DNA from: a virus | Lineage: Duplodnaviria; Caudoviricetes | DNA: 64,000 bases | IMG/VR virus record: IMGVR_UViG_3300037067_009128 | Span: 53,326-117,325 of that record | Strand: one strand, 5' to 3' | In this document: in pieces, positions 1-20,697 of the stretch | Position numbering within the stretch: position 1 is the stretch's first letter | Layout: each line of letters opens with the position of its first letter | Program-made: the position numbers and the translations under genes | The notes under the pieces: generated by a model | The model's input: the letters and a program-made list of their open reading frames with translations, nothing else | The model's database searches: none | What the model was told of the DNA's origin: nothing

Positions 1-710
1 GATCCATCATCTTCAAAAAATATCCAATCTTGTTTTATTAGTTTTGTGATAGTATTCTTTACTGAACCGGTAACATCTCTTTTCTTTTGATAGTATATTT
101 CAGGTACAAAATGAAAATAACTACCTAATTTTAAATTAGTTTCTGAAGCAACATATCTTTGTAATAATGTATGGTGAAAAACATCATAAGGTAATAAATT
201 CATAACATCATTAACTCTCATATTAACATACACATCAAGTTCACCATTTCTGTTCATAAACTGTATTGTTAGTGTACAAGGTCTTCTTGGATAAAGATCT
301 CTAGTCATAAGATATTTATCATCCCATATATTTAGAATACATTCAGAATATCCTTTTTTAAGACGTTTTATAATAACAGGTAATTGAGAATTATAAACAT
401 CTCCATAACTATAACAAAATCCTTCAAAATCTTCTTCTTCATTTTTTAATTTTTTTGCCCAATTAGGTCTAAATTGATAAGCTGTTCCTGGATTATTTCT
501 ACTTTCTTTTTGAGAAAGACGATTAACTCCTTCTACAAAACACCAAGACCAATTCTTTCTAATAGATATTAAAGAATTACAAGGATTTGTTAATTCAAAA
601 AATACTCCTGGGTAACTCTTAAATTTTCCTACAATTTGTCCTGTTGATTCAAGAGTTTCTAAGATTTTTAAATATATATTATAAAAATTATTTTCTTTAA
701 GAATTAACAT
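1..710 (-). CDS. Thymidylate-synthase-fold protein, dCMP-type (Asp at specificity position), atypical; 3' end runs off the window
   Basis: Not in the ORF track. Hand translation from ATG 710 is open to base 1: MLILKENNFY...NNPGTAYQFRPNW...FCYSYG...RRPCTLTIQFMNRNGELDVYVNMRVNDVMNLLPYDVFHH...LGSYFHFVPEIYY. PC catalytic motif, QF..G.L and R..D follow the TS pattern. Confidence 0.85.
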   Translation of the reverse strand, partial: MLILKENNFYNIYLKILETLESTGQIVGKFKSYPGVFFELTNPCNSLISIRKNWSWCFVEGVNRLSQKESRNNPGTAYQFRPNWAKKLKNEEEDFEGFCYSYGDVYNSQLPVIIKRLKKGYSECILNIWDDKYLMTRDLYPRRPCTLTIQFMNRNGELDVYVNMRVNDVMNLLPYDVFHHTLLQRYVASETNLKLGSYFHFVPEIYYQKKRDVTGSVKNTITKLIKQDWIFFEDDG

Positions 711-1746
711 AATCAACCCAATTTGGATACATTTTTTGAAATTCTTCATGTAAAGGAATCATCAATTCCCTCATTTGAGGATGTGCAGCATTAGATGTTC
801 TCATATAAAAAATCCATTGCCATTCTTTCAGATTAGTAGTAACAACAATTTCCGTTTTTATATGGTGACTCAATTTACCTCTAGCTTGTTGAGGTTGAAG
901 ACCATAATTTATAGCATTTAAATATCTTGATTCATTAATTGCACAATCAAAGAAGAATTCTTTATCAATATCAGAACTAAACTCAAAATTTCTTTTTTCA
1001 CCTTCATGATATTCATGTTCAGATATGTTAACCCAAGGAGGTATTATATAAGTTAATTGATTTCCAAATTTATCTTTACTATAATTACAATATCTTGTAC
1101 TTTCTTGTGAGAATGCAATATTGTTACGATGTCTTACAAGTTCATGAGTAACTCCTCTATCACAAACAAAATTAACAGAAACACATTCATGAATTAACTT
1201 CTCATCAAATGTTAAAAGTTCAGTATTGTTGAGTTCAAAGAATAAGGTTTGATTATCTTTTTCATATGTATGTTTAATTACCGGAAAAGGTTCTTTGTTT
1301 ATTAAATCTTTAAAAAATAATGAGTATTTATTAATTAAATAATAATACAATTCTAAAAACATAAAATTATCTTCTATGTCATTTACTTGTTTAATATAAT
1401 TAAAAACATCAATAATTAAATTTCTAAATGCTCTTACATTTCCTGAGACAAAACATCTATGATAACTATGGGCTTTATCTCTTGAGAGTTTTAAATATTT
1501 TGTTGACATTCCATCATTGAATGTAATAAACCATTTATAGAATGCTGAATTAGTTATTGCAAAAATAAGATTATGATGTTCAAGAACTGAATAATGATTT
1601 CTTTCTTTTATTTTACTTATAAACTTAATATAACTATCATCAGTAATTAAACATTCAGATTGATAACAAACCCTTCCGCAATTTTCTATTTTTTTATAAG
1701 GGTTATCTTCTTTTATAATTTCAAAATAAGGTTTTATTAATCTCAT
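697..1746 (-). CDS. thyX: Flavin-dependent thymidylate synthase
   Basis: GRVCY, HYSVLEH, THELVRHR, SQESTRY and AHPQMR motifs. Confidence 0.95.
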   Translation of the reverse strand: MRLIKPYFEIIKEDNPYKKIENCGRVCYQSECLITDDSYIKFISKIKERNHYSVLEHHNLIFAITNSAFYKWFITFNDGMSTKYLKLSRDKAHSYHRCFVSGNVRAFRNLIIDVFNYIKQVNDIEDNFMFLELYYYLINKYSLFFKDLINKEPFPVIKHTYEKDNQTLFFELNNTELLTFDEKLIHECVSVNFVCDRGVTHELVRHRNNIAFSQESTRYCNYSKDKFGNQLTYIIPPWVNISEHEYHEGEKRNFEFSSDIDKEFFFDCAINESRYLNAINYGLQPQQARGKLSHHIKTEIVVTTNLKEWQWIFYMRTSNAAHPQMRELMIPLHEEFQKMYPNWVDYVNS

Positions 1747-1748
1747 GT

Positions 1749-1976
1749 TTATTCCTCATCATTTTCATCTTCTTCATCTTGAACTAAATATTCTGGCCAT
1801 TTACCAGAACTTTCATATTCTCTGACACAATCAATTGCATACTGTTCTATTTGTTTTTTCAAATCTCCTGCAGGTATGAGTTTAGATGAATTTACATTAA
1901 AACTAGCATTAGTATTGATCTTTTTATTGTCTAAAGACTCAGATGTTATTATAATTGATATTAAACATTTATCCAT
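1749..1976 (-). CDS. Hypothetical protein, acidic C-terminus
   Basis: ORF within the operon; AAGGAG upstream. Confidence 0.6.
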   Translation of the reverse strand: MDKCLISIIITSESLDNKKINTNASFNVNSSKLIPAGDLKKQIEQYAIDCVREYESSGKWPEYLVQDEEDENDEE

Positions 1977-1995
1977 TAAATTAGCTCCTTTTTAA

Positions 1996-2631
1996 TTAAT
2001 AATTACTTTCTTGTCGAAATTGATTTACTCTTGATTTTTGATAATACATATTAAGAATTTCAATAGGTTTCATTTTTAAAAATAAGATGTTAAGATATTT
2101 AATAAAAGCTTTTGATAAAAACGATTGATACTTGACAATATCTGTTGAAACATGAGTACATTTCCATGGTTTTATTTTTAAACAATTCATAGTTTTACCA
2201 AGGATTTTTATAAAATCTCTCAATTCTATATCAAGAGTTTCATCATCTAATAATTGAGCATCAAGATATTTATCATAAGGTTTAAAATCACAAAAAACTT
2301 CAGCATCTATACTTGATAATAAACAAAGTTCAACAATAAAATGTAAACCGTCCATCATTTCTTCTTTATAGTGTACTTCATCATGAAAATCATCTAAAGC
2401 TTCTAAAGCCTCACCAATTTCTTCAACAATTCTCCAAGCAAAATTCTTCAATAAATTCTGATCTTTACCATTATCTATATTACAAAATAAATTCTCTGGA
2501 TAATAAAATCCATTTTTAACTTCAATAGGTGCATATTTTATCGCTAATTCATGTTGACGTTTAAAGATCAGAGGAATTAGATCGATGGTATCTTTTTCAG
2601 AAAATTCTGTGGTATAATCATTAATATTCAT
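1996..2631 (-). CDS. Dimeric all-alpha dCTPase/dUTPase (T4 gp56-like, MazG superfamily)
   Basis: EEIGEA, EEMMDGLHF, KPWK and C-terminal KSRVNQFRQESNY motifs. Confidence 0.8.
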   Translation of the reverse strand: MNINDYTTEFSEKDTIDLIPLIFKRQHELAIKYAPIEVKNGFYYPENLFCNIDNGKDQNLLKNFAWRIVEEIGEALEALDDFHDEVHYKEEMMDGLHFIVELCLLSSIDAEVFCDFKPYDKYLDAQLLDDETLDIELRDFIKILGKTMNCLKIKPWKCTHVSTDIVKYQSFLSKAFIKYLNILFLKMKPIEILNMYYQKSRVNQFRQESNY

Positions 2632-2645
2632 TTAGTTTATTCCTT

Positions 2646-3554
2646 TTATAAAATTGTTTGAAGTTTACTGGGAATCATTGTAGATTTTAATGAGTGCAAT
2701 GATGATATAAATCCGTCATTTCTTAAACTATCTATTAAATCTTTACTATTAATAGCTTTAATTTCATATTCAAAAAGTTTATTATTAAGTAAATACAAAT
2801 TAGGTTTTGGTAGAATTAATTCATCGTCTTCAATAGATTTAATTCTATTATCATGATTTTTTAAATCAATCAGTCTTATATTTCTTTTAACATTTTCAAT
2901 TTCAGTAGGATACATTGATTCTAATGTTTTTAATGGTTCAATTTCACCATTGATGAATCTACATGTTTTAACTTCACCAAATCCTTTTATTCCTTTAATA
3001 TTATCTGATGTGTCACCTAATATAGATAAGTACAAAATAAACTGTTCTTTTGAAACTCCATATTTAGTTTTAATCATATCTTCATCATACTTAATTAAAC
3101 CATCTTTTGGATGGGGTCTTAAAACTTTTATATTATTTTCATCAGAAATTAGTTGTAATAGATCTTTATCATTTGATATAATTGTAATATCTTTTTGAAA
3201 TCGTCTTACAAGATACTCAATACAATCATCAGCTTCATATTCATCCTTTCTTATTTGAGGTATTCCAATTAAAGTACATAAATCTTTTACATTATGAAAA
3301 CACTCAATCATTTCTTCATTAATTTCTTTTCGCTTTTCTTTGTATTGGGGGTATTCTTTTCTTCTCCAATTTTTATCTTTACTACCTTCCCAAGCAATTA
3401 TGAATTTATCTGTAACTCTTGCATAAGAAATTAACATATTAAAAAATCCATAAATACCACCTGTGTGTATTCCTTTTGAAGATTTGAATTTTGAGAATAC
3501 GTGATACGCTCTATATGCTAAATTAGCACCATCTATAAGACAAATATTAGACAT
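2646..3554 (-). CDS. 5'-3' exonuclease / flap endonuclease (PolI N-terminal, T4 RNase H-like)
   Basis: IDGANLAYRAY, YEADD, SNDKDLLQL, LGDTSDNIKGIKGFG. Confidence 0.93.
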   Translation of the reverse strand: MSNICLIDGANLAYRAYHVFSKFKSSKGIHTGGIYGFFNMLISYARVTDKFIIAWEGSKDKNWRRKEYPQYKEKRKEINEEMIECFHNVKDLCTLIGIPQIRKDEYEADDCIEYLVRRFQKDITIISNDKDLLQLISDENNIKVLRPHPKDGLIKYDEDMIKTKYGVSKEQFILYLSILGDTSDNIKGIKGFGEVKTCRFINGEIEPLKTLESMYPTEIENVKRNIRLIDLKNHDNRIKSIEDDELILPKPNLYLLNNKLFEYEIKAINSKDLIDSLRNDGFISSLHSLKSTMIPSKLQTIL

Positions 3555-3989
3555 TTATTTCCATATTATTGTGTTAGATTCATTAAGTATAACTTTATTA
3601 TTTTGAACGAGTTCTTTAACAACATTTTTAACTCGTATTCGAGATGATTTTCCTACTTCAGAATAGCCAAATTCTTTATCTACAGCTTCTATAACAGTTT
3701 TTGTAGTTATTGGGGATTTTTGTTGAATATAATTTATTATCCAATCTTTTCTAGATTCTTTTGAAGTTTTCTTTTTATATTTTTTAATCTTATAATCTTC
3801 AGTTATTTTATATTCTTCCATTGTTTTCATGTACTGATCATATGTAATTTCTAGTAATTCTTCTCTAGATTCAATATCATTTGGAATTGTCATTCCAAAT
3901 TCTTCTTTTACTAATTGTTTTACTTCTTCTAATGAAGCATCAGATTCTACTAAAACCTTTCTAAAACTCTCTTTTGGTATAATATTCAT
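3555..3989 (-). CDS. Putative DNA-binding protein, C-terminal winged-helix-like
   Basis: Helix-helix-helix plus beta-hairpin pattern (WIINYIQ...VKNVVKELVQNNKVILNESNTIIW). Confidence 0.45.
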   Translation of the reverse strand: MNIIPKESFRKVLVESDASLEEVKQLVKEEFGMTIPNDIESREELLEITYDQYMKTMEEYKITEDYKIKKYKKKTSKESRKDWIINYIQQKSPITTKTVIEAVDKEFGYSEVGKSSRIRVKNVVKELVQNNKVILNESNTIIWK

Positions 3990-4022
3990 ATTTAGTCAAA
4001 ATTAGTGGGAAAAAATTTTATA

Positions 4023-4040
4023 CAAAAATAAATCATCATT
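4023..4040 (-). promoter_or_regulatory. GA-N5-TAWWTTTR promoter motif
   Basis: AATGA-tgatt-TATTTTTG on the minus strand, upstream of 3989. Confidence 0.5.
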
Positions 4041-4416
4041 GAATTAATTTCTCTTGTTCTCTTTGTTTCTCATATTGTACTTCTTTTATATCTAAGTATA
4101 CATCTTTAGCTAAATTCCAATTTGGATCATCAGATTCTTCAAGTCTTTCAACTTCTCTTTCTATTAAAGTCATTAACCATTTAGTAAATGATTTAAAATT
4201 TATAAATTTAATATATATTGTAAAAGTTTGAAACATATCAATATGTTGATTTGATATGTATGCTTTAACTGAAGCATTTCTTCCATGTTTATAAAAGATA
4301 TTACTTCCAGGAATCCTAGTATCTTTTATACCATATCTTTTCATTACATCTTTATATTTATACTCTCTCATATTTATCCATTCTTTTAATACCATTACTA
4401 TTAGGACTACCTTCAT
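4036..4416 (-). CDS. Hypothetical protein (likely start ATG 4371)
   Basis: ORF in the minus-strand operon. Confidence 0.55.
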   Translation of the reverse strand: MKVVLIVMVLKEWINMREYKYKDVMKRYGIKDTRIPGSNIFYKHGRNASVKAYISNQHIDMFQTFTIYIKFINFKSFTKWLMTLIEREVERLEESDDPNWNLAKDVYLDIKEVQYEKQREQEKLIQ

Positions 4417-4693
4417 TAAAATTTATATAAAACCATCCAGTTTTTACTAATAATTTATGATACCATCTAATTATATATCTTCCATCATATCTAGGACCTA
4501 AATGTATATAATTTTTATCAAGTTTCATAACATTGTAATTCGGATCTACATTTGTTAAAATTTTACATTGATTAGTAGATAAACGATTTAACTGTATTAT
4601 TCTCAAACCTGGGAAATACTCTTCTTTCATACTTGAATCAAATAAGTATCCTGGATGGATCATATAAATCTTTTTATGTTTCTTTTTAACCAT
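4358..4693 (-). CDS. Hypothetical protein
   Basis: ORF overlapping the helicase stop; GAGG upstream. Confidence 0.55.
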   Translation of the reverse strand: MVKKKHKKIYMIHPGYLFDSSMKEEYFPGLRIIQLNRLSTNQCKILTNVDPNYNVMKLDKNYIHLGPRYDGRYIIRWYHKLLVKTGWFYINFNEGSPNSNGIKRMDKYERV

Positions 4694-6206: not shown

Positions 6207-6592
6207 TATGCTTTAATACAAAGTAATGGTAGTAATCCAGTTAATGACCACCAAGAACCACTGCTAATAAAAAATACACTTGTTAATAAAACTGCTCCTA
6301 CAATTAAACAAATGTCAATAAGTTTATATAATTCTTCTTTACCAGAAATGTTGTGGTGATAAATATGAATCATTTCTTCATCATTTGTTTCATTAAGATT
6401 ACTATCAATCAACTTACCTGTATTATTGACAGGTTCTCCTCCTAAAAATTCTTCCATAGAATCTGCAAAAGTTTTTTCTCTTTGTTGATTTTTATCCATT
6501 ATACCTCCTTGGATTTTAGCATTTCTAATTATAACACCGTCTTCAGATGGCTTTTTAAAAAATGTATCATCAACTTCAATATCTTTTTCCAT
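6206..6592 (-). CDS. Hypothetical membrane protein
   Basis: Hydrophobic C-terminal segments. Confidence 0.6.
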   Translation of the reverse strand: MEKDIEVDDTFFKKPSEDGVIIRNAKIQGGIMDKNQQREKTFADSMEEFLGGEPVNNTGKLIDSNLNETNDEEMIHIYHHNISGKEELYKLIDICLIVGAVLLTSVFFISSGSWWSLTGLLPLLCIKA

Positions 6593-6625
6593 TTTATACC
6601 TTTATTTAATGTTTAAAAATTATTA

Positions 6626-6643: not shown

Positions 6644-7265
6644 AATCCTTAAATAAGGCATCTAGGATTTCTTTATCAAGTTTATTATTTGACACTGTTT
6701 TGATTATTTTAACTAATTTTGCAATACCATTTCTACGTTTAGCTCCTAATATTTTAGCAATAGTTGTTCTTGAAGCATCGGGGAATGCTAATCTAAGTTG
6801 AAAAGTTTTTCCAGCTCTTTTACTTACACTAAAAATTATATCATGTAATCTGTGTATATCTTCTATAAATCTTTCATCAATTTTAATTTCACCACTGTCG
6901 AAAACATATTCTTCAAGATTCTCAATTTCTAAATTAGGATCCATTCTTGAATTACAAGTATTTTTTCCTTCTTTATCTGTTTTATTTATCTCTCTTATTA
7001 CTCCTTGTTTAACTATGTGGTATACCCAACCTAAAGCATTGTCCCATCTATTCTGGTCGAATTTGAGTATAGCTTTCCAGAATGATTCAAATGCTATAAT
7101 TTCAATATCACTTTCTTCAAATACTCCATGTTTATCATGAAAGTTTTTCAATCCAAAATATTTTTTTATCTTTTTAAAATAAAACTGTAATTCACAATCA
7201 CTTGGGGATTTTTTATAATTCTCAATAAAAAGTAATAAATCTTCATTAGTTATTAGGTTTTTCAT
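6642..7265 (-). CDS. Phage sigma-70-family RNA polymerase sigma factor
   Basis: Region-2-like ESFWKAILKFDQNR...WVYHIVK and C-terminal HTH SRTTIAKILG. Confidence 0.7.
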   Translation of the reverse strand: MKNLITNEDLLLFIENYKKSPSDCELQFYFKKIKKYFGLKNFHDKHGVFEESDIEIIAFESFWKAILKFDQNRWDNALGWVYHIVKQGVIREINKTDKEGKNTCNSRMDPNLEIENLEEYVFDSGEIKIDERFIEDIHRLHDIIFSVSKRAGKTFQLRLAFPDASRTTIAKILGAKRRNGIAKLVKIIKTVSNNKLDKEILDALFKD

Positions 7266-8976
7266 CTTTCTTTACCTTTTTAAACTCAACTTGTCTCATT
7301 TGAGTATTGATAATTTTTAAACATTGTGGATTGATATTTAATGCAACGTTTACTTGAGGCCCGTTACTTTGCTTTGCTATGTTAACTTCTATTGCATAAT
7401 TTAATAATGTAGTATCATAAAAATTTGGATAATGTAATAACATTACTATTCTAGCAAATTCTTCATAAGCTCCAGAATCTTTTAATTCCCATAATGATGG
7501 ACGAGGATCTTTTTTCTTTTCACTATTTCTGTTAATTTGTACTAATAAACAATAATGTTGTTTAAACTCTTTTGCCATTGTTAAATACCTAACAAGAGTT
7601 GCACTTACTTTTTGTGCTTTAAATTCTGGAGAATCACCTACTCCTTTTAATCTATCAAATAAATCAAAGAATACAACTTTTACTCCCTTTTTAGCTAACA
7701 TCCTCAATTCGTTTCTCATTTGATTTTCAGATTTATTTGTACCTTCAAGTAAATGGTAATTCCATTTAGATTGAATCTCCCAAGCATTTTTTAACTTTTC
7801 TAAACGGTTATCAGATTTTAACCAAGAATGACTACCAACAATTTCTTTTATAGGAATACCAGAAATGATTGAATCAATACGGTCCGATTCTACTTCCATA
7901 GTTTGTTCAAGAGCATAACTTGCAACACCAGTTCCGAGGTTACACATATTAGTAATTAGATTCCCTTTAACAAGTGAATTATGAACTAATATATTATTAG
8001 CAATGAAATTTGAATTTTTTAATAATGTTAAATCATATGTATCATCAATATCAGTTAAATCTATAGATTTAATAGGTAAAAATATAAAATCAGATTCTAT
8101 TAATGCTATTAAATCTTCATTAATACTTAAATCTTTTAAAGATTTCCAACCTGTTTTAGTTAAAAATAAATGATTATTAGATGCTTCTATTTGATATCCT
8201 ATCTTAGATAAAACTATTTTATACAATTGTTTTTTTCCAGAATCAATCTTATCAATTACTCTATCTAATTCAAGTTTATCATCATTGTTTTTAGTCCAAA
8301 TTAAATCTCCTACTTTAATATTTCTCAATTCAATTAATCCATGATTTGTATTGATTAATGAATTCCCTTTTAAACATTTCCCGTTACTTGGACGGCCAGC
8401 AACAATTGATATTTCACCTTCTTCAAATTTATAAGTAAGATTATCATCAATCTCTTTAATTCCACAATAAATTGAAGTTTTTGATTTCCTATCTTCTAAA
8501 GTCTTTATCCTGAAATCAGTATAAGTATCACCCGTAATATATTTTTCATCTAAAATTGATGATGAATTCTCTAATTTGAAATCTTTTATTAATTGTTGGT
8601 AAGGATCTGGGTCATTTTTTAATTTTTTGATAAGAGATTGGCATTCATCTATTGTTTTTCTTCTATCATGCCTATCAATAAGAAGTTCAATAAGACTGTC
8701 AAGTTTTTCTGGTATGAAATATTTATCTTCAATTGATATAATCTCATCTAAAGATAATACATCCCCTATTAGTGATAATTCACTTTTAACAGTATAAGCA
8801 TTAACATCTAAATTCTTTTCAACTAAATTAGAAATTGCAATAAAACAAGTTCTAAAATCAGGTTGACTAAAATGATCATCTGTTAATTGAGAGAGTATTT
8901 TTTGTCTAGCTTCATCAAAAGATATACTTAAACCTATAACTAATTGCTCATTTATTCTATCATTACTTATATTCAA
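7246..8976 (-). CDS. dnaB: DnaB-family replicative helicase containing a mini-intein
   Basis: N-terminal DnaB domain, AGRPSNGK|S Walker A, ALEQ, QINR, RPSLWELKDSGAYEE, IAKQSNGP. Confidence 0.92.
   Translation of the reverse strand: MNISNDRINEQLVIGLSISFDEARQKILSQLTDDHFSQPDFRTCFIAISNLVEKNLDVNAYTVKSELSLIGDVLSLDEIISIEDKYFIPEKLDSLIELLIDRHDRRKTIDECQSLIKKLKNDPDPYQQLIKDFKLENSSSILDEKYITGDTYTDFRIKTLEDRKSKTSIYCGIKEIDDNLTYKFEEGEISIVAGRPSNGKCLKGNSLINTNHGLIELRNIKVGDLIWTKNNDDKLELDRVIDKIDSGKKQLYKIVLSKIGYQIEASNNHLFLTKTGWKSLKDLSINEDLIALIESDFIFLPIKSIDLTDIDDTYDLTLLKNSNFIANNILVHNSLVKGNLITNMCNLGTGVASYALEQTMEVESDRIDSIISGIPIKEIVGSHSWLKSDNRLEKLKNAWEIQSKWNYHLLEGTNKSENQMRNELRMLAKKGVKVVFFDLFDRLKGVGDSPEFKAQKVSATLVRYLTMAKEFKQHYCLLVQINRNSEKKKDPRPSLWELKDSGAYEEFARIVMLLHYPNFYDTTLLNYAIEVNIAKQSNGPQVNVALNINPQCLKIINTQMRQVEFKKVKKDEKPNN
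7978..8376 (-). mobile_element. Mini-intein (133 aa) in the DnaB P-loop
   Basis: Starts CLKGNS directly after GK; block B SNNH; block F TYDL; ends ILVHN with Ser+1; too short for a homing endonuclease. Confidence 0.92.
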
Positions 8977-14093: not shown

Positions 14094-14130
14094 ACTTTTG
14101 GTCTAAAAGACGATCGGTGAGACAACTAAG

Positions 14131-14163
14131 ATAGGGAGTTTTTTAAAGATTTCTCCCTATTTT
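14131..14163 (+). terminator. Intrinsic terminator
   Basis: ATAGGGAG...CTCCCTAT stem followed by T run. Confidence 0.65.
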
Positions 14164-14170
14164 GGTGTGA

Positions 14171-14188
14171 AAGGAACAATTATATTTG
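14171..14188 (+). promoter_or_regulatory. GA-N5-TAWWTTTR promoter motif
   Basis: AAGGA-acaat-TATATTTG upstream of the radical SAM gene. Confidence 0.6.
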
Positions 14189-14234
14189 TAAATAAAAACA
14201 AATTGAAATTTGAACTTTTTAATTAAGGAATAAA

Positions 14235-15329
14235 ATGGTATTTCCTAAAAATATTACTTATTTAAATATATCTATTACTAATCAATGTAATTTTAAATGT
14301 TCTTATTGTTATAAAAATAATAAATCAAAAGAACAATCAATTGATATGAGTTTTGATGATTTAGATAAAATTTTAAAAGCTTTATCCTTGAACAGTGATA
14401 GAAAATTACCTTTAACATGTTTTATTTCTGGAGGAGAACCTCTTTTAACAGATCATTTGAGTTTAATTACTCTTATAAATAAATATAATAAAATTAAATT
14501 TCAAATATCCACTAATGGGTCTATAAAGATAGAAGATTATTTTATAAATGGTCTTATCAATAAAAATATATCTTGGGTATTATCTTATGATGGGGTAATG
14601 TGTAATCAACGTATGGGGTTTGATAAAATTACATTTAATCATAATATAGATATTTTAACTAATAATGAATTTCATGTTCATTTAAATCCAACTTATAACC
14701 ATAATAATATCAAAAACATGGTTCATATTTATTATGAAGAATTAATAAATACAAATAAGTACATAACTTATGGTTGGAATTTAGCTAAAGCAGTAACAAC
14801 AGCTTTCCCAGATAATTACTATAAAGAATTTACTGATGCAATGTTTTTTATATTAAACGATATTTCTGAAAGAAAATATAAGTATGTACCTTTATATATA
14901 AAAGGATTAATAGGTTTAAAACTTGTAGGTAGTTTATCTCCTCATTGTTATCATAAATATCGTAATATTATTGATGTTTATGGGAATATTTATAGGTGTA
15001 ATATTATAAGTCAAAATACTGATTTTAGACATGGTAATATTCATGATGATTTATATTATAACTATATAAACTACAATTATAAATTTAATCTAAAACTTAA
15101 TAAAGTAGAAGATTTCATAAATAATTATAGACATGATTTTGATTGTAAATTGATATGTACATTGCATCCAAAAGTTTATACTATTTTAGATACTTTAATT
15201 GATGAATTTATAATAAAAGCACCTAGTAATGTATCATTAGATTCTATAAGTTTTTACAATAAATGTTATCCAACTGGATTTTGTTTAGGTACAAATATGA
15301 ATGCACCAGCATTTAATTTTAATTTATAA
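14235..15329 (+). CDS. Radical SAM protein with twitch/SPASM-like C-terminus
   Basis: CNFKCSYC, SGGEPLL, STNGS, SYDG, C...IDVYGNIYRC. Confidence 0.9.
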   Translation: MVFPKNITYLNISITNQCNFKCSYCYKNNKSKEQSIDMSFDDLDKILKALSLNSDRKLPLTCFISGGEPLLTDHLSLITLINKYNKIKFQISTNGSIKIEDYFINGLINKNISWVLSYDGVMCNQRMGFDKITFNHNIDILTNNEFHVHLNPTYNHNNIKNMVHIYYEELINTNKYITYGWNLAKAVTTAFPDNYYKEFTDAMFFILNDISERKYKYVPLYIKGLIGLKLVGSLSPHCYHKYRNIIDVYGNIYRCNIISQNTDFRHGNIHDDLYYNYINYNYKFNLKLNKVEDFINNYRHDFDCKLICTLHPKVYTILDTLIDEFIIKAPSNVSLDSISFYNKCYPTGFCLGTNMNAPAFNFNL

Positions 15330-15340
15330 AAAGGAGTAAA

Positions 15341-16690
15341 ATGGAGAATAGTTTTATAAAAATAGCAGAATGTTTCAATAAAATAAAAGAAACATCTTCA
15401 AGTAATGAGAAGAAAAAAATCTTAGAAAGTTTTTCTGGATCAATTTCTGATATAAAGATCATATTATCATTAACATATGATCCGTATATTATGTATTATG
15501 TAAATAAAGTAGATCTTGAGAATTTTAATGATCATGCATTGTTTTTAGGTGAATTTGATGTTGATGCTCTTTTAGATTATCTAGGGCCTCTTACTGAAAG
15601 GAAGATTTCTGGACATGATGCATTAAATCATGTTTGTAGGATTTATAATTTACTTCCCGTTAAGTTTCAACCATATTTAGAAAAGATTTTATGTAAAGAT
15701 TTAAAAATAGGTCTTGCAACGGGTTTAATCAATCAAGTATTTCCTGGTTTGATTCCAGAATTTGACTTAGCACTCTGTGAGAGATTTAAGAAAATCAAAT
15801 TGAATCAAATTAAATACCCAGTCTATGTTGAACCTAAAATTGATGGGACTCGTGCATTAGCTTTTGTTTATGAAGATCATGTTGAAATAAAAGCAAGATC
15901 GGGTATTAAGTTTGAAAATTTTAAAGTAATAGAACAAGAATTATTAGCAATTTCTGCTTTTATTGGGTATGTACTTGATGGAGAAATACAAGATGTTGAT
16001 TTTCAAACTACAATGAATAATGCTCGTAGAGTACATGATGCTCAAGCAGACAATGCAATATTTAAAATCTGGGATAAACTCTCAATAACTGAGTTTATGT
16101 TAAAACAATGTAAGTCATCACTTGAAGAAAGAAAACATGATTTAAGAGATATTTTTAATTATGTTAGTAATAATATCTCTTTTTATCATTTGGAGTTAAT
16201 CCCTTATGATATATGTGATTCATTTGAAGAAATACTGAAAGAATTTGAATATTGGAAATTTGAGAAAGGTGAAGAAGGAGTTGTTGTAAAAGATCCACAT
16301 TCAAAATATCCCTTTAAAAGAGACAGAGTTTGGTGGAAATTCAAGATTAGAGACTATTCTGAAGTAAAAGGTGATAAATCTAAATGTGAATGTTCTGCTC
16401 AGATTTTAGATTATTATAAAGGTGAACAAGGTACTAAATACGAAAATTCATTAGGTGGTTTTGTTTGTAAAACTGTAATAAATGGGGAAAATGTATACTT
16501 TAATGTTGGTGGTGGTTTTTCAGATGAACAAAGAGAAGATTTTATTAAAAGACCTCAAGATATAATAGAATATTTTCCAATAATAGATGTTAGTTATGAG
16601 GAGGTTACTAAAAATAAAAAAGGGACTTTGTCTTTACGACATCCAATCTTTCTTAGAATTAGAGAAGACTTAAACTCTATTGATGAATAA
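15341..16690 (+). CDS. ATP-dependent DNA ligase
   Basis: EPKIDGTR, LDGE, EGVVVK, WWKFK, VGGGFSDEQR, SLRHPIF. Confidence 0.95.
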   Translation: MENSFIKIAECFNKIKETSSSNEKKKILESFSGSISDIKIILSLTYDPYIMYYVNKVDLENFNDHALFLGEFDVDALLDYLGPLTERKISGHDALNHVCRIYNLLPVKFQPYLEKILCKDLKIGLATGLINQVFPGLIPEFDLALCERFKKIKLNQIKYPVYVEPKIDGTRALAFVYEDHVEIKARSGIKFENFKVIEQELLAISAFIGYVLDGEIQDVDFQTTMNNARRVHDAQADNAIFKIWDKLSITEFMLKQCKSSLEERKHDLRDIFNYVSNNISFYHLELIPYDICDSFEEILKEFEYWKFEKGEEGVVVKDPHSKYPFKRDRVWWKFKIRDYSEVKGDKSKCECSAQILDYYKGEQGTKYENSLGGFVCKTVINGENVYFNVGGGFSDEQREDFIKRPQDIIEYFPIIDVSYEEVTKNKKGTLSLRHPIFLRIREDLNSIDE

Positions 16691-16704
16691 ATTTAAGGAA
16701 TAAA

Positions 16705-16722
16705 AAAGAATAATTATATTTG
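16705..16722 (+). promoter_or_regulatory. GA-N5-TAWWTTTR promoter motif
   Basis: AAAGA-ataat-TATATTTG. Confidence 0.6.
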
Positions 16723-16770
16723 TAATTCAAATAAAATTTAATTATTTTTAATAAAAATTTAAAGGGTAAT

Positions 16771-16920
16771 ATGGGAGTATTTTACATTATTATAATATTT
16801 GTAATTATCTCATTAATTCTTGAGTTTTGTTATGCTTTATTTTTATTAAGTTTATTTTTATTAAGTTTATTTTTAATTATAAGGATTGGTCAATCTATAT
16901 GGAGAAAGTTAAAATTTTAG
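16771..16920 (+). CDS. 49-aa hydrophobic membrane micro-protein
   Basis: MGVFYIIIIFVIISLILEFCYALFLLSLFLLSLFLIIRIGQSIWRKLKF; downstream of a promoter motif. Confidence 0.45.
   Translation: MGVFYIIIIFVIISLILEFCYALFLLSLFLLSLFLIIRIGQSIWRKLKF
16836..16875 (+). repeat. 15-bp tandem repeat TTTATTTTTATTAAG, about 2.7 copies
   Basis: Read directly from the sequence. Confidence 0.85.
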
Positions 16921-17249
16921 GATTCTGTGATGGTCAACCCATAGGAACAATATATCATTTATCAAATAGTTATATTTTATTTAATATTAAAGATGATAAT
17001 AAAGGAAATTTCAATAGTGATGATATCATAAATATAAAACTGTCTAGTCCCCATTTAGAGTTTTTATATGAAAGTAATTATCAAAAAATAGAAGATATAG
17101 AAAAGATGTTTAATTATGAGGTTGTTTATAATAAATCATTAATAGAAAAAGAGGTAATATTTAATTCAAATGATATAATTGATGATGGTTTATTATTTGA
17201 TATAGCTTCAAGATGGATGGCAGATCCTGAGAAATTTTATGTAAATTAA
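16899..17249 (+). CDS. Hypothetical protein
   Basis: ORF 16827-17249; ATG 16899 preferred as start. Confidence 0.6.
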   Translation: MEKVKILGFCDGQPIGTIYHLSNSYILFNIKDDNKGNFNSDDIINIKLSSPHLEFLYESNYQKIEDIEKMFNYEVVYNKSLIEKEVIFNSNDIIDDGLLFDIASRWMADPEKFYVN

Positions 17250-17404
17250 AGAAAGGAAAATTAGATCTATGTTAGGAAGTATTAAATTATTAGGGTTACT
17301 TATTATTAATAATAAAATTAGTTTAAAAAGTTTAATTTTGTGGTATAATATTACAAAGAAACTTTTGATTTTAAGATTGAAATTTAATTATAATTAATGA
17401 AAAC

Positions 17405-17422
17405 AAAGATTGTTTATATTTG
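17405..17422 (+). promoter_or_regulatory. GA-N5-TAWWTTTR promoter motif
   Basis: AAAGA-ttgtt-TATATTTG. Confidence 0.6.
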
Positions 17423-17482
17423 CAATGTGTTATTTTTCTATTTATTAAAACAATTCAATCAATAAATTAAGGAGAACCTAAA

Positions 17483-17896
17483 ATGAGTAATGGTGTTAGT
17501 GCTTTGAAAAAATTAAAAAAATCACCTAAAACTACAGAAGATGCTGCAACTGTAAAAACAGAAGCACCTGTAAAGACTGATGTTCCAGCTGCTGCTTTGG
17601 CTGCAACAAATGGTGGTGAAAAAACAAAGAAAGGTTCTGGGTTAATTCCACGAACGAAAGATCCTGAAAAAGCAAAACTTGAAGCTGATACTCAAGCTGC
17701 TATTACAGAATTATTAAAAGCTTCAAAAGATGGTTTAATGGCTACTGATCTTCGATTAAAACTCTGGCCTACTCTTGCAGAAGATGAAGTTAAAGAAACT
17801 GAAAGATTCATTCGTCAGCAATGTAGAGCAATGGGTTGTGATTCAGTTCCTATTGAAGGCAGCCGTAAGGTAAAATACACATTACCTAAAAAGTAA
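17483..17896 (+). CDS. Putative nucleoid-associated protein: K/A/T-rich tail plus wHTH-like C-terminus
   Basis: Monocistronic with promoter motif, AAGGAG and terminator; low-complexity basic N-terminus. Confidence 0.55.
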   Translation: MSNGVSALKKLKKSPKTTEDAATVKTEAPVKTDVPAAALAATNGGEKTKKGSGLIPRTKDPEKAKLEADTQAAITELLKASKDGLMATDLRLKLWPTLAEDEVKETERFIRQQCRAMGCDSVPIEGSRKVKYTLPKK

Positions 17897-17919
17897 AATA
17901 AGAAAGTCAAATATATAAG

Positions 17920-17946
17920 AAAGGGCAATTCTCATTGCCCTTTTTG
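17920..17946 (+). terminator. Intrinsic terminator
   Basis: AAAGGGCAAT-tctc-ATTGCCCTTT plus T run. Confidence 0.85.
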
Positions 17947-17978
17947 ATTTTTAAGAAATATTTACTAAGGAATGATAA

Positions 17979-18341
17979 ATGGAAGCTTCAATAAGTCTTA
18001 ATGTAAATGATTTAATCTCATCTTTAAAAAATACTCCACAAGTCCCAAGATACAAAATAATAAACGGTCAAAGAATTAAAATTGAAGAATATAACAATCT
18101 TGAAAATCAAGAAAAAGAAAATTTACTCTTCAAAGATGAAATAGACTATTCTGTTATAGATGATGAACTTTATGAATTAGATAAAGAATGGAAAACAGAA
18201 ATTGACCCTGTTATGAAACAGATTTTATCTTTGAAATATGACTTGATAATTTTCCAATTCTTTCATCATGAAGAGGATGTCAATTTAATTACTGAATTAA
18301 CAAATCATCTTAACGATTTAACAAAATTATTAAAGAAATGA
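17979..18341 (+). CDS. Hypothetical protein
   Basis: AAGGA RBS. Confidence 0.65.
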   Translation: MEASISLNVNDLISSLKNTPQVPRYKIINGQRIKIEEYNNLENQEKENLLFKDEIDYSVIDDELYELDKEWKTEIDPVMKQILSLKYDLIIFQFFHHEEDVNLITELTNHLNDLTKLLKK

Positions 18342-18748
18342 ATAAATCTGATTTTAAAATATATGACCCAGTTAAATTTGAATTGATGATTAATCAAGTT
18401 ATCAGAAATGATGATTATCCTTTTAATTTTAAATGTAATATAAGAGTATGGGTAAAAGACAAAGAGATACCAGTAGTAAAAAATGCTTTTGAATTTAATC
18501 CTCTGTTATTGAAAAATTTAGATGATTTTATAAAGTTTAAAACTCATAAGTATTTTCCAGGGAAACATAAGAATTATTTTATTAAAGAAATCAAAGATCA
18601 ATTAAATTTAATTGATTTCGTTTTAATTGTAAAAGATAGAGAAAATAATGATTTTACTATAAAATTATATTTTGATACTTCTACAAAACAATATATTATC
18701 ACATCTGTAGAATCAAATTCTCTTTATCCAAAGGGCTCACAATTATAA
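18338..18748 (+). CDS. Hypothetical protein
   Basis: ATGA overlap with the previous gene. Confidence 0.65.
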   Translation: MNKSDFKIYDPVKFELMINQVIRNDDYPFNFKCNIRVWVKDKEIPVVKNAFEFNPLLLKNLDDFIKFKTHKYFPGKHKNYFIKEIKDQLNLIDFVLIVKDRENNDFTIKLYFDTSTKQYIITSVESNSLYPKGSQL

Positions 18749-18833
18749 ATCTGATGACTGGATGAATTAATTTATAATTGTTGATTTTCATTTTATAAAT
18801 AAATTTAATAAAATAATTTAAAGGAGATTTTTT

Positions 18834-19226
18834 ATGGACCCTAACAAATTGAAGAATCTAAAATCCCTATCAAACAAAGGAAAAAAAGATTCAGAAACTA
18901 AAAAAACTGAAGAAGTTGCAAAAACAGAAACACCTTCTGAAACAAAACCAGAAGTAAAATCTGAAGCAAAATCAGATACAGCAGCAACAGTTAAGAAAGC
19001 AAAGAAAGGTTTTGATGAAGCTAAACTTGAAGAATATGTAAAAATACTTTCTGATGGGAATGCTCATTCAATTCATGGCTTGCTTGACCATTTTAAACTT
19101 GATCACACAAGTTCTGGTAGAGAAGTCTTAAGGACAGCTAACAGGACTATCAATCAGACAGGTAAATTCAAAATAGAAACTATGTTTGTTGATAGTAAAA
19201 AAGCTAATAAATTAGTTAAATTATAA
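18834..19226 (+). CDS. Putative nucleoid-associated protein: K/E/T-rich tail plus wHTH-like C-terminus
   Basis: Same architecture as 17483-17896; AAGGAG RBS and terminator. Confidence 0.55.
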   Translation: MDPNKLKNLKSLSNKGKKDSETKKTEEVAKTETPSETKPEVKSEAKSDTAATVKKAKKGFDEAKLEEYVKILSDGNAHSIHGLLDHFKLDHTSSGREVLRTANRTINQTGKFKIETMFVDSKKANKLVKL

Positions 19227-19251
19227 ATTATTTTTCTTATTTGATTCATTG

Positions 19252-19279
19252 AGAGGACAACTTTAAATTGTCCTCTTTT
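19252..19279 (+). terminator. Intrinsic terminator
   Basis: AGAGGACAA-7nt-TTGTCCTCT plus TTT. Confidence 0.8.
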
Positions 19280-19289
19280 AATATTAAGG

Positions 19290-19556
19290 ATGTTTATGTT
19301 TGATGGAATTTCGTTGGTTATTTTTATCGTAATCATCTGGTTGATTAGGATTTTAATTGAACAAAATAGAGAATTAAAATCATACAGAAAGATATTTAAA
19401 TTCAATAAGAGTGAATTAAAAATTTTTAAAGAAAAAACTTTTATTTACAGTTATATTCAATTTAGACTTTTTATTCTTAGGGTTAAAAGATTAAATCTAA
19501 GAATAAAAAGAATTAAAACAGAAGAAGATATTGATTTTGTAATAAAAGAATTCTAA
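19290..19556 (+). CDS. Hypothetical membrane-anchored protein
   Basis: N-terminal hydrophobic helix. Confidence 0.55.
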   Translation: MFMFDGISLVIFIVIIWLIRILIEQNRELKSYRKIFKFNKSELKIFKEKTFIYSYIQFRLFILRVKRLNLRIKRIKTEEDIDFVIKEF

Positions 19557-19869
19557 AACTTAAAAAAGGAGTGATTATGTACAATTATATTTATTCTCAT
19601 ATTCGCTATAATGCAATTATATCTATTATTGCTGATAATAAAAAAATAGCAGATGCTATTTTTAAAGAAATTGTTGGTAAAAATAAAAATTTTTGGGATT
19701 TTATAGAAAGGATAAAAAACTAAATGGAACCGAAAGTAAAAATTGTAATATTTGATGATGAAAGTTTTAAAGTCTGTTCAGAACTTCAAGCTAAAGAATA
19801 CGAAAATAACCCAGAATGGCTTATGACTTTAGATTTAAACTGGATTAATGAATTAGCAAAGGAAGTAAA

Positions 19870-20697
19870 ATGAGAATATATCAAACACTTTATGAATGTA
19901 CTTCTGAAACAGAGAGGAATCTTTGGGAAATGGGTATTGACGTACCCATCAAAACAATGCAAAATAAAAAAGTTGAAGGTGATCCAAATTTGGGGATGAC
20001 TAAAGAGATTATGGGTGAGACTTATAAAATAATAGATCCTTTAAATATTGAAGGAATCATTAAAGCATATAATCATATGTTTAAATTTGATTCAAAAAAT
20101 TTAAAAATTAGTGAAGAAGTAAATAAAAACTTACATTGGGTTCAAGAAGAATTTAAAGAAAGAATTTTTAATCCTAGTAAAGGTAATTGTGATTTTATTA
20201 ATCCTGGGGAAGCTTGGGAAATCAGAAAAGAAACTTGGGAACCATTTTTAGTAAATGGTAAATTTGAGTATACTTATAATGAAAGATTGCGTGCATTTAA
20301 TCAATTACAAAAAGTAATTAATCATTTAAAATCTGATATCAATTCAAGAAGAGCAGTAATTAATATATATATAGGTCCACCATTTTCAGGTTATTTTAAT
20401 GATGAGGATGGTATTTGTGATGGTTATGAACCAGGAGATCTACAAGGACTTAAAGATATTAAAAGAGTTCCATGTTCAGTTACTTATTCATTTTTATATA
20501 GAGAAAATAAGTTACATACATTTTACCATATGAGAAGTTCTGATTTTTATTTACATTGGATTAACGATATGCATCTTGCAGCAAAATTCGGTAAGTATGT
20601 TGCAGATGAATTGAAAGTTGATTCAGGTGAATTGATAGTTTATATCAATTCATTACATGCATATTACGGTGAACTTAAAAAAAGAAAGATATTTTAA
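19870..20697 (+). CDS. Thymidylate-synthase-fold dCMP-modifying enzyme (dCMP hydroxymethylase-like)
   Basis: NSRRAV, RVPCS, MRSSDFYLHWIND (ND as in T4 gp42), NSLHAY. Confidence 0.85.
   Translation: MRIYQTLYECTSETERNLWEMGIDVPIKTMQNKKVEGDPNLGMTKEIMGETYKIIDPLNIEGIIKAYNHMFKFDSKNLKISEEVNKNLHWVQEEFKERIFNPSKGNCDFINPGEAWEIRKETWEPFLVNGKFEYTYNERLRAFNQLQKVINHLKSDINSRRAVINIYIGPPFSGYFNDEDGICDGYEPGDLQGLKDIKRVPCSVTYSFLYRENKLHTFYHMRSSDFYLHWINDMHLAAKFGKYVADELKVDSGELIVYINSLHAYYGELKKRKIF

What the first reader, a model, noticed from the sequence alone, without database searches (positions are those of the whole stretch)
1..20697. Probable cytosine-replacement pathway: two paralogous dCMP-type TS-fold enzymes, a dCTPase-like enzyme and ThyX
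Seen: the minus-strand ORF 710->1 (missing from the ORF track) and ORF 19870-20697 are both thymidylate-synthase fold. They share a subfamily motif (NPG(T/E)A(Y/W)...W...F.Y(S/T)Y). Both keep the catalytic PC. Both carry Asp where true ThyA has Asn: E. coli RSCDVFLGLPFN versus RVNDVMNLLPYD and RSSDFYLHWIND. Established: Asp at this site marks dCMP specificity, as in T4 gp42 (RSNDVVFGFRND); T4 pairs gp42 with the gp56 dCTPase, whose motifs resemble 1996-2631. Inference: ThyX supplies dTMP, leaving both TS-fold proteins free to make modified cytosine(s). Two such paralogs could mean a two-step or undescribed C modification.
Basis: partly seen in the sequence, partly recalled or inferred. Interest (0 to 1): 0.85.

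Follow-up and report, generated by a model that had tools for sequence, protein, structure and literature searches.

The report
Paired cytosine-type thymidylate-synthase homologs in phage
An uncultured 117-kb phage carries two different thymidylate-synthase-like enzymes built to act on cytosine rather than uracil nucleotides, inside a T4-style nucleotide-remodelling gene set; they most likely put a chemically altered cytosine into the phage DNA, but neither enzyme belongs to a characterised type.

Summary
Both ORFs are thymidylate-synthase (TS) fold. Both keep the catalytic Cys and carry Asp at the E. coli Asn177 position. ThyX and a dUTPase_2/gp56-family NTP pyrophosphatase lie beside TS1. 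Just outside the window follow a dNMP kinase, two C5-methyltransferase-like genes, dCMP deaminase and a glycosyltransferase/methyltransferase island.

By published diagnostic residues, both enzymes are cytosine-type (N177D, no His147). Both keep Asp169, so they are probably folate-dependent and not flavin 5-hydroxy-dCMP synthases. Both have Arg at position 143, unlike T4 gp42 (Asp), ThyA (Leu) or PaMx74 (Asn).

They form two separate uncharacterised clades that are weak sisters. The clades co-occur in 13 phage contigs and are translationally coupled in two.
- **TS2** has canonical nucleotide-binding residues and also occurs alone in Clostridium perfringens phages.
- **TS1** belongs to a small family with MilA-like architecture and altered phosphate and 3'-OH contacts.

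My verdict is a new variant of the T4/Xp12-type pre-replicative cytosine-modification pathway. The product is unknown and full replacement of cytosine is unproven; the conserved C5-MTase-like genes argue against full replacement. The scan has flagged paired Asp-type TS enzymes in other phage genomes before (e1-5738025, e1-3421160, e1-2002448). None of those is close to these proteins in sequence.

The parts
1..749 (-). TS1: N-terminal 249 codons of a 324-aa (311 aa from the Met at 710) cytosine-type TS-fold enzyme. The last 75 codons lie before the window (G000 53100-53325).
   Evidence: PF00303. Diagnostic residues: C158, R178, D181 (=D169), D189 (=N177D), R155 (=L143R), T159 (=H147T), S135 (=R126), V179 (=S167), Y at the H207 column. 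The model's best Foldseek match is MilA, TM 0.72-0.74 over the full length including a C-terminal five-helix domain.
697..1746 (-). ThyX, flavin-dependent thymidylate synthase (349 aa, with an N-terminal extension)
   Evidence: PF02511 at 9.8e-35. TIGR02170 at 87.2 bits, just under its 87.9 cut-off. RHR-x8-S-x-R-Y motif present. No ThyX was seen in any related locus.
1749..1976 (-). Small conserved ORF (75 aa) lying between the NTPase and TS1/ThyX; function unknown
   Evidence: Weak homologues at the same position in L008, L011 and L012. No Pfam match.
1996..2631 (-). All-alpha NTP pyrophosphatase of the dUTPase_2 family (T4 gp56 family); candidate dCTPase/dUTPase
   Evidence: PF08761 at 29.9 bits (cut-off 22.9). 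PHROG 12184 at 3e-21. T4 gp56 hits the same Pfam family. Pairwise similarity to gp56 is E 1e-3. Syntenic with TS1 in L008, L011/12/40, L013, L018, L019, L041 and L048. It is the only dNTP pyrophosphatase found in the genome: no PF00692 and no PF03819.
19870..20697 (+). TS2: 275-aa cytosine-type TS-fold enzyme with canonical nucleotide-binding residues, lying in the plus-strand block of small genes
   Evidence: PF00303 at 8.9e-11. Diagnostic residues: C202, R160/R161 (=R126/R127), R222-S223, D225 (=D169), D233 (=N177D), R199 (=L143R), S203 (=H147S), H229 (=G173H), H263/Y265 (=H207/Y209). Closest isolates are Clostridium perfringens phages CPD4/CP3/CPAS-15 at 32.5% identity.

Best explanation
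This is a pre-replicative cytosine-modification module of an uncultured tailed phage with 25% G+C. It follows the T4/Xp12 logic but uses two uncharacterised TS-fold clades.

Inferred flow. The gp56-family pyrophosphatase returns dCTP (and dUTP) to the monophosphate. TS2, which has a full set of dNMP-binding residues, most likely transfers a one-carbon unit from methylene-tetrahydrofolate to C5 of dCMP, giving 5-hydroxymethyl- or 5-methyl-dCMP. The adjacent dNMP kinase and the host NDP kinase raise the product to the triphosphate, and the phage PolA incorporates it. dCMP deaminase plus ThyX keep dTMP supplied.

TS1 is a second, non-redundant cytosine-type enzyme. It has MilA-like architecture, Glu at the 127 position and Tyr at the 207 position. 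It either makes a different C5 product, uses a different substrate form, or works as a partner of TS2.

Shown: the fold, the active-site residues, the clade structure, the synteny and the co-occurrence. Inferred: the substrate, the cofactor, the product, entry of the product into DNA, and the division of labour between TS1 and TS2.
For: - Both proteins have N177D and lack His147. These are the two residues that best discriminated modified-cytosine contigs experimentally (PMC8670742).
- The diagnostic table reproduces the known specificities of six reference enzymes fetched by tool: E. coli ThyA, RB69 td, T4 gp42, RB69 gp48, PaMx74 and SPO1 gp29.
- Asp169 is kept, whereas all tested 5-hydroxy-dCMP synthases have D169N (PMC13326640).
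- Scores against the NCBIfam ThyA equivalogs are far below cut-off: 32.6 against 327, and 60.7 against 174.55.
- The NTPase-TS1-dNMP kinase order is conserved.
- TS, dCMP deaminase, all-alpha NTPase, ATP ligase and PolA are the domains reported to co-occur on modified-cytosine contigs (PMC8670742; bioRxiv 2024.12.05.627091). All are present here.
- TS1 and TS2 form two well-supported clades, 100/99 and 99/98.
- They co-occur in 13 contigs. They overlap by 4 bp in L041 and by 1 bp in L048.
- TS2 in L019 carries an intein inserted at the catalytic Cys, which points to a gene under selection.
- TS2 stands alone in phage CPD4.
- A glycosyltransferase/methyltransferase island lies next to the module here, and an analogous one in L011/L040. 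This is compatible with later decoration of a hydroxymethyl group.
Against: - There are no chemical data; no family member comes from a phage whose DNA has been analysed.
- Arg at position 143 fits neither the hydroxymethylase state (Asp/Glu) nor the methylase state, so the product cannot be read from sequence.
- One or two C5-MTase-like genes are conserved and translationally coupled to the kinase or to TS2. They need an unsubstituted C5 in DNA, which argues against complete replacement.
- This phage's own TS1 has Ser at a nearly invariant Arg (R126 equivalent) and Val at the S167 column, so it may be weakened.
- Some relatives (L015 type) carry a trimeric dUTPase and no gp56-like NTPase.
- The NTPase specificity for dCTP is untested.
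Confidence: 0.6

Rival explanations
1. Thymidylate supply rather than cytosine replacement. One or both Asp-type enzymes methylate dCMP, and the dCMP-deaminase-family enzyme deaminates the 5-methyl-dC nucleotide to make dTMP or dTTP for a 75% A+T genome. Cytosine in DNA stays mostly canonical and is marked only at the sites of the C5-MTase-like enzymes.
For: In Xp12-type phages, 5-methyl-dCTP deaminases of the dCMP-deaminase family lie next to PolA and TS homologues and make dTTP (bioRxiv 2024.12.05.627091). The same deaminase-PolA adjacency occurs in L008, L013 and L041. Relatives have no ThyX. The conserved C5-MTase-like genes imply free C5 positions in DNA. The genome is 25% G+C.
Against: This phage already has ThyX plus a deaminase for the normal route. 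Neither enzyme clusters with the PaMx74/Xp12-type methylase. In the known cases the 5-methyl-dCTP is also incorporated into DNA, so this route does not exclude replacement. Two different enzymes would be superfluous for this purpose.
Confidence: 0.17
2. Effectively a one-enzyme pathway. TS2 does the chemistry. TS1, at least in this phage, is a catalytically weak or non-catalytic subunit: a heterodimer partner, a scaffold of a dNTP-synthesis complex, or a regulator.
For: The TS1 family has Glu at the R127 column and Tyr at the H207 column. This phage's copy additionally has Ser at the nearly invariant R126 column and Val at S167. TS active sites are built across the dimer, and TS2 keeps the donated Arg. 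TS1 and TS2 are translationally coupled in L041 and L048. TS2 occurs alone in CPD4, whereas TS1 was found without TS2 in only one phage species, known from incomplete records: G003 is 65% complete, and only a 21-kb stretch of its 121-kb contig could be read.
Against: TS1 keeps Cys146, Arg166, Asp169, Tyr94, Trp80, Glu58 and Asp177 invariantly across its family, which is expected of an active enzyme. No multimer prediction or interaction data could be obtained.
Confidence: 0.2
3. One of the two is a flavin-dependent 5-hydroxy-dCMP synthase of the RB69 gp48 / HY126 AfhB type, feeding a glycosylated 5-hydroxycytosine.
For: AfhB (PDB 9iqu/9iqc) is the best PDB hit by sequence for both proteins: E 4e-8 for TS1 and 4e-5 for TS2. 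The combined TS1+TS2 clade sits next to the RB69 gp48 clade in the tree, 96/85. Glycosyltransferases are nearby.
Against: All experimentally confirmed 5-hydroxy-dCMP synthases have D169N (PMC13326640). Both proteins and all their relatives keep Asp169.
Confidence: 0.05
4. Ordinary thymidylate synthases (dUMP methylases), redundant with ThyX.
For: Pfam, PHROG and database annotations call them thymidylate synthase.
Against: They have Asp instead of Asn177 and no His147. Scores are far below the ThyA equivalog cut-offs. They fall outside the ThyA clade.
Confidence: 0.03

Closest known systems
T4 pathway: gp56 dCTPase/dUTPase, gp42 dCMP hydroxymethylase, gp1 dNMP kinase (plus DNA glucosyltransferases)
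   Same: Same logic and gene set: an NTP pyrophosphatase of the same Pfam family, a TS-fold enzyme with N177D and no His147, a dNMP kinase, and glycosyltransferases nearby. TS2 shares gp42's Arg126/127, Ser167 and His207/Tyr209.
   Different: Position 143 is Arg, not Asp. Neither enzyme falls in the gp42/nattely clade. There are two enzymes instead of one. C5-MTase-like genes sit in the operon. The kinase is thymidylate-kinase-like rather than gp1-like. Similarity of the NTPase to gp56 is marginal.
Xp12 / PaMx74-type 5-methylcytosine pathway (TS-homologue dCMP methyltransferase, PRA-PH-type NTPase, 5mdCTP deaminase next to PolA)
   Same: N177D with Asp169 kept. A deaminase and PolA lie in the same module. 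An all-alpha NTP pyrophosphatase is present.
   Different: The PaMx74 enzyme groups with true ThyA (100/99) and has Asn143/Pro147. TS1 and TS2 lie elsewhere in the tree.
MilA, CMP 5-hydroxymethylase of mildiomycin biosynthesis (PDB 5jnh, 5b6d)
   Same: It is the best structural match to both models. TS1 matches over its whole length (TM 0.72-0.74), including an extra C-terminal domain of five helices (PMC5175136). Asp is present at the 177 column.
   Different: MilA has Asp at 143, per PMC13326640. Its ribose preference rests on Ala at the S167 column and Lys at the R126 column. The TS1 family has Thr/Ser and Arg there, and this phage's copy has Val and Ser. Sequence identity is about 18%. The context is a phage replication operon, not an antibiotic cluster.
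RB69 gp48 / DLP3 gp80 / HY126 AfhB, flavin-dependent 5-hydroxy-dCMP synthases
   Same: TS fold, N177D, and the nearest characterised clade in the tree. AfhB is the best PDB sequence hit.
   Different: The diagnostic D169N is absent, and position 143 is Arg rather than Glu.
TS homologue of Clostridium perfringens phages CPD4, CP3, CPAS-15 and Clo-PEP-1
   Same: It is a member of the TS2 clade: 32.5% identity over the full length, with the same R143/S147/H173/D177 signature.
   Different: It is uncharacterised, annotated only as thymidylate synthase. It stands alone, with no TS1 in the genome.

Membership tests
ThyA thymidylate synthase (dUMP methylase) | TS fold with catalytic Cys146, Arg166 and Tyr94 | tested here: met
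   PF00303 above cut-off, AlphaFold models plus Foldseek, and alignments
ThyA thymidylate synthase (dUMP methylase) | Asn177 and His147 (uracil recognition) | tested here: not met
   D189/T159 in TS1 and D233/S203 in TS2. NCBIfam equivalog scores of 32.6 and 60.7 bits against cut-offs of 327 and 174.55.
T4 gp42-type dCMP hydroxymethylase | N177D | tested here: met
T4 gp42-type dCMP hydroxymethylase | Acidic residue at the L143 position (water access), per PMC13326640 | tested here: not met
   Arg in every TS1 and TS2 family member examined; T4 and nattely have Asp
T4 gp42-type dCMP hydroxymethylase | Placement in the gp42 clade | tested here: not met
   ML tree: gp42, nattely and SPO1 gp29 lie on the other side of the root from TS1+TS2. 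Deep nodes are weakly supported and the gp42 branch is long.
Flavin-dependent 5-hydroxy-dCMP synthase (RB69 gp48, AfhB) | D169N | tested here: not met
   Asp is kept in both proteins and in all relatives; the RB69 gp48 control shows Asn
Xp12/PaMx74-type dCMP methyltransferase | N177D with Asp169, and clustering with the Xp12/PaMx74 enzymes | tested here: inconclusive
   The residues are met, but PaMx74 clusters with ThyA, away from TS1 and TS2. Xp12 itself was not fetched.
MilA-type CMP hydroxymethylase | Extra C-terminal five-helix domain | tested here: met
   TS1 only: helices 229-239, 253-267, 273-276, 286-302 and 306-323; Foldseek alignment of 308-332 columns to MilA (PMC5175136)
MilA-type CMP hydroxymethylase | Ala at the S167 column and Lys at the R126 column (ribose preference) | tested here: not met
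   The TS1 family has Thr/Ser and Arg; this phage has Val and Ser; L047 has Lys at 126
dUTPase_2 / T4 gp56 dCTPase-dUTPase family | Match to PF08761 above the gathering score | tested here: met
   29.9 bits against 22.9. T4 gp56 scores 25.4 bits on the same model.
dUTPase_2 / T4 gp56 dCTPase-dUTPase family | Hydrolysis of dCTP | not testable with these tools
   No sequence rule for base specificity is known to me. There is only context: synteny with TS1 and the kinase, and no other dNTPase in the genome.
ThyX | PF02511 match and the RHR-x7/8-S-x-R-Y motif | tested here: met
   120.5 bits; motif read in the translation. TIGR02170 scores 87.2 bits against a cut-off of 87.9.

The most novel reading that the evidence does not exclude
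TS1 and TS2 act as an obligate pair, either as a heterodimer or in consecutive or parallel steps. Together with the lineage-specific C5-MTase-like enzymes, which carry Lys at the HhaI Asn304 / CmoX Arg350 position, they build an undescribed cytosine chemistry. Examples would be two different C5 adducts in one genome (one installed at nucleotide level, one at DNA level), or a DNA-level enzyme that remodels the nucleotide-level adduct. In this phage the adduct would be further decorated by the glycosyltransferase/methyltransferase island.
Probability: 0.22. Interest if true: 0.85.

Novelty: new variant of a known kind. Interest (0 to 1): 0.6.

Why it matters
TS homologues are the entry point of nearly all pre-replicative pyrimidine modifications in phages. 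Their product is currently read from three residues (143, 169, 177). Here are two clades, one small and one well populated, with a fourth state at position 143 (Arg) that none of the six references compared here shows.

The two clades are kept together across a phage lineage. They are wired to C5-methyltransferase-like genes that carry the substitution known to switch such enzymes to carboxymethyl transfer. Testing them would extend the residue code for predicting DNA modifications from metagenomes. It could also reveal a new cytosine adduct, or a first case of two cytosine-type TS enzymes working together. Either would be relevant to restriction evasion, to sequencing artefacts in viromes, and to enzyme tools for epigenetic sequencing.

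Tried and rejected
- A DNA-level search of 8 kb against 50,697 phage records matched only about 150 bp of ThyX to crAss-like and Bacteroides phages. I first suspected a crAss-like phage. I dropped that idea because PolA is only about 24% identical to SPO1-type UDG-PolA enzymes and the structural proteins have almost no PHROG hits.
- Literature searches for '9IQC', 'AfhB', 'crAss-like' with 'dCMP hydroxymethylase', and DNA modification in C. perfringens phages gave nothing useful.
- The spread listing of T4 gp42 hits gave no new functional references.
- CPD4_74, the gene next to the CPD4 TS2, was considered as a hidden second TS. It has no Pfam match and aligns poorly, so I rejected it.
- The conserved 254-256-aa protein of the relatives was considered as a short ThyX. 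It has no Pfam match.
- No trimeric dUTPase, MazG or CmoA was found in the genome. TET/JBP was also not found, but the control for that search found nothing anywhere, so it is uninformative.
- No tRNAs are in the window, so they give no host clue.
- The ENA/Logan contigs L040 and L041 could not be searched whole. Whether the L011/L012/L040 phage species lacks TS2 therefore stays open.

Full report
**Setting.** The window is bases 53326-117325 of a 117,325-bp IMG/VR virus record. CheckV rates it 95% complete and G+C is about 25%. The left 10 kb of the window is the end of a long minus-strand replication and nucleotide-metabolism operon that continues before the window. From about 10.4 kb a plus-strand block of small genes begins. 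No isolate is close. PolA, which has an N-terminal UDG-like domain, is about 24% identical to SPO1-type polymerases, and the large structural proteins have almost no PHROG matches.

**Observation.**
- TS1 (window 749/710 to 1 and 226 bases beyond; 324 or 311 aa) matches PF00303 above threshold.
- TS2 (19870-20697; 275 aa) also matches PF00303 above threshold.
- Both fold confidently (pLDDT 86.8 and 89.9), and Foldseek places both among TS-fold structures with probability 1.00.
- I fetched E. coli ThyA and T4 gp42 by tool and aligned them with both proteins and their families. The catalytic Cys, Arg166, Asp169, Tyr94 and Trp80 are kept. The Asn177 column holds Asp in both.
- The L. casei N229D mutant outranks the wild type in a PDB sequence search for both proteins, which is an independent sign of the same thing.
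- ThyX (697-1746) is clear.
- ORF 1996-2631 belongs to Pfam dUTPase_2, the family that T4 gp56 also hits. Its direct similarity to gp56 is confined to the C-terminal motif.

**Surroundings.** Directly downstream of TS1, outside the window, lie these genes in order:
- a 138-aa unknown;
- a thymidylate-kinase-like dNMP kinase;
- two C5-cytosine-MTase-like genes, the first overlapping the kinase by 4 bp;
- the DnaG primase;
- a dCMP deaminase;
- a 7-kb island with GT2+MTase, MTase, a small kinase-fold protein, a DUF2334 deacetylase-like protein and a GT1-like protein;
- PolA.

The genome has no trimeric dUTPase and no MazG, so the gp56-family enzyme is its only recognisable dNTP pyrophosphatase.

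**What the residues say.** Two recent papers give tested rules.
- MetaGPA found positions 177 and 147 to be the best discriminators between TS homologues on modified-cytosine contigs and those on unmodified contigs (PMC8670742).
- Lee et al. 2026 (PMC13326640) give three rules: N177D for dCMP; Leu143 against Asp/Glu143 for methyl against hydroxymethyl; and D169N for the flavin-dependent 5-hydroxy-dCMP synthases. PDB 9iqc/9iqu, the best sequence hit of both proteins, is one of these synthases.

I built a table with six reference enzymes fetched by tool: E. coli ThyA, RB69 td, T4 gp42, RB69 gp48, PaMx74 TS and SPO1 gp29. The rules reproduce their known products, except that PaMx74 has Asn and not a hydrophobic residue at 143.

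The two families read as follows:

| Position (E. coli numbering) | TS1 family | TS2 family |
|---|---|---|
| 126 | Arg | Arg |
| 127 | Glu | Arg/Gln/Lys |
| 143 | Arg | Arg |
| 147 | Thr | Ser |
| 167 | Thr/Ser | Ser |
| 169 | Asp | Asp |
| 173 | Leu | His |
| 177 | Asp | Asp |
| 207 | Tyr | His |
| 209 | Tyr (Trp/Phe in some) | Tyr |

Both are therefore cytosine-type and folate-type, and not of the 5-hydroxy type. Both share an Arg at 143 that none of the six references compared here has. This phage's TS1 also deviates from its own family at two columns: Ser for the nearly invariant Arg126 and Val at 167.

**Phylogeny and family size.**
- In an ML tree of 44 sequences, TS1 (100/99) and TS2 (99/98) are separate clades and weak sisters (80/74).
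- They lie outside the gp42/nattely/SPO1 group and outside the ThyA+PaMx74 group, next to the RB69 gp48 clade. Deep nodes and long reference branches make the exact placement uncertain.
- The two proteins are 22% identical. 'Paralogues' is right only in the deep sense.
- An exhaustive profile search of 1.84 billion representatives finds only about 24 clusters of the TS1 family (E up to 1e-42). Below that there is a gap down to the general TS superfamily.
- TS2 has more than 150 clusters at 90% identity. Its closest isolates are C. perfringens phages annotated 'thymidylate synthase'.
- TS1's closest isolate is Enterococcus phage nattely. Its TS sits next to a beta-glucosyltransferase, but it has the T4 signature.

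**Structure.** TS1's best matches are the MilA CMP hydroxymethylase chains (TM 0.72-0.74 over 308-332 columns). The match includes a C-terminal domain of five helices that MilA has and that ThyA and gp42 lack (PMC5175136). The residues that give MilA its ribose preference are not reproduced, so I do not propose CMP as the substrate. TS2's best matches are also MilA (TM 0.66) and AfhB. T4 gp42 structures are not in the top 50 for either model.

**Conservation of the pair.** Loci encoding TS1 relatives all show TS1 in the same replication module: DnaB, sigma-like protein, SNF2-type helicase, a conserved 144-aa protein and a dNMP kinase.
- A TS2-type gene with the same residue signature is present in 13 contigs, counting this one.
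- It overlaps TS1 by 4 bp in L041 and by 1 bp in L048, and lies one gene away in L013.
- In seven loci it stands next to, or within one gene of, a C5-MTase-like gene, directly upstream or overlapping it in five: L009, L015, L018, L019 and L041.
- In L019 it carries an intein inserted exactly at the catalytic Cys.
- Only one phage species (L011/L012/L040) shows TS1 without TS2. Its IMG/VR records are 63-65% complete, and its 121-kb contig could not be searched whole.
- CPD4 has TS2 alone.
- ThyX was not seen in any relative. It is an accessory of this phage and not part of the module.

**The C5-MTase-like genes.** Both align end to end with M.HaeIII and M.HhaI and keep motifs I, IV (Cys), VI (Glu), VIII (Q-R-R) and IX. 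They have SP(S/D)C in motif IV and Lys where HhaI has Asn304. Lys is conserved in 11 of the 13 copies examined (Arg in one, Ser in one). That column is the one mutated in the engineered carboxymethyltransferase M.MpeI N374K, and it is occupied by Arg350 in the natural phage carboxymethyltransferase CmoX (PMC12783734). No CmoA is encoded. Whatever they transfer, such enzymes act on an unsubstituted C5 in DNA. This is the strongest argument against complete pre-replicative replacement of cytosine.

**Reading.** The best-supported explanation (0.6) is a T4/Xp12-style nucleotide-level cytosine modification. TS2 is the main dCMP one-carbon transferase and TS1 is a second, non-redundant cytosine-type enzyme of unknown role. 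ThyX and the deaminase cover dTMP. The product cannot be called. The sugar and methyl island, here and at the analogous place in L011/L040, would fit a hydroxymethyl handle, but that is inference.

Rivals:
- a 5-methyl-dC nucleotide route to dTTP without replacement (0.17);
- TS1 as a weak or non-catalytic partner (0.2; this overlaps the main reading);
- a 5-hydroxy synthase (0.05);
- plain thymidylate synthases (0.03).

**Relation to earlier notes of this scan.** Notes on this genome had already listed the operon, the Lys-type MTases, the altered TS1 pocket and the glycan island. I checked those claims and they hold as observations. Other genomes gave follow-up reports of paired Asp-type TS enzymes. 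By shared words, none is close to these proteins in sequence.

Noticed in passing
L005:12115-13089(-) and L005:10821-11822(-) (G000 51115-52089 and 49821-50822, before the window): Two C5-cytosine-MTase-like proteins have SPSC in motif IV and Lys at the HhaI Asn304 / M.MpeI N374K / CmoX Arg350 position. Lys is conserved in 11 of the 13 copies examined across the lineage (Arg in one, Ser in one). No CmoA is in the genome. They are candidate natural Lys-type carboxymethyl (or other) transferases.
   Followed up: partly
L019:12040-13986(+): The TS2 orthologue of a 105-kb relative carries an intein of about 400 aa inserted exactly at the catalytic Cys, which serves as the +1 residue. A 640-aa TS1-family protein (P0154) may carry a similar insert.
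   Followed up: partly
window 7246-8976(-): The DnaB-type replicative helicase contains an intein splicing domain (PF14890) between its N- and C-terminal domains.
   Followed up: no
window 3555-3989(-): A 144-aa protein without Pfam match is conserved in 12 of 13 related loci, always within the same replication and nucleotide module. Its function is unknown.
   Followed up: no
window 14235-15329(+) and 15341-16690(+): A radical-SAM protein (generic MoaA/SPASM-like N-terminal match only) lies next to an ATP-dependent DNA ligase in the plus-strand block that also holds TS2. The ligase domains are among those associated with modified-cytosine contigs in MetaGPA. The role of the radical-SAM enzyme is open.
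   Followed up: no
L005:894-8057 (G000 39894-47057, before the window): An island between dCMP deaminase and PolA encodes GT2+MTase (687 aa), Methyltransf_24, a 184-aa protein-kinase/Kdo-kinase-fold protein, a DUF2334 deacetylase-like protein and Glyco_trans_1_2. It is absent from the closest relative L008. L011/L040 carry unrelated MTase-GT1 fusions after the second C5-MTase gene, upstream of the primase.
   Followed up: partly
L015:15493-16257(+), L041:7684-8454(+) and equivalents: A 254-256-aa protein with no Pfam match is conserved in the nucleotide module of relatives in at least eight loci (L009, L010, L014-L018, L041). It has no detectable homologue in this phage.
   Followed up: no
L040:8848-9093(+): In the widespread 121-kb relative, an 81-aa PP-binding (acyl-carrier-like) protein lies between the NTPase and TS1.
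   Followed up: no
L004:17103-19835(-) (G000 37103-39835): PolA carries an N-terminal UDG-superfamily domain, as in SPO1-type polymerases of phages with modified pyrimidines. The same fusion occurs in L041.
   Followed up: no
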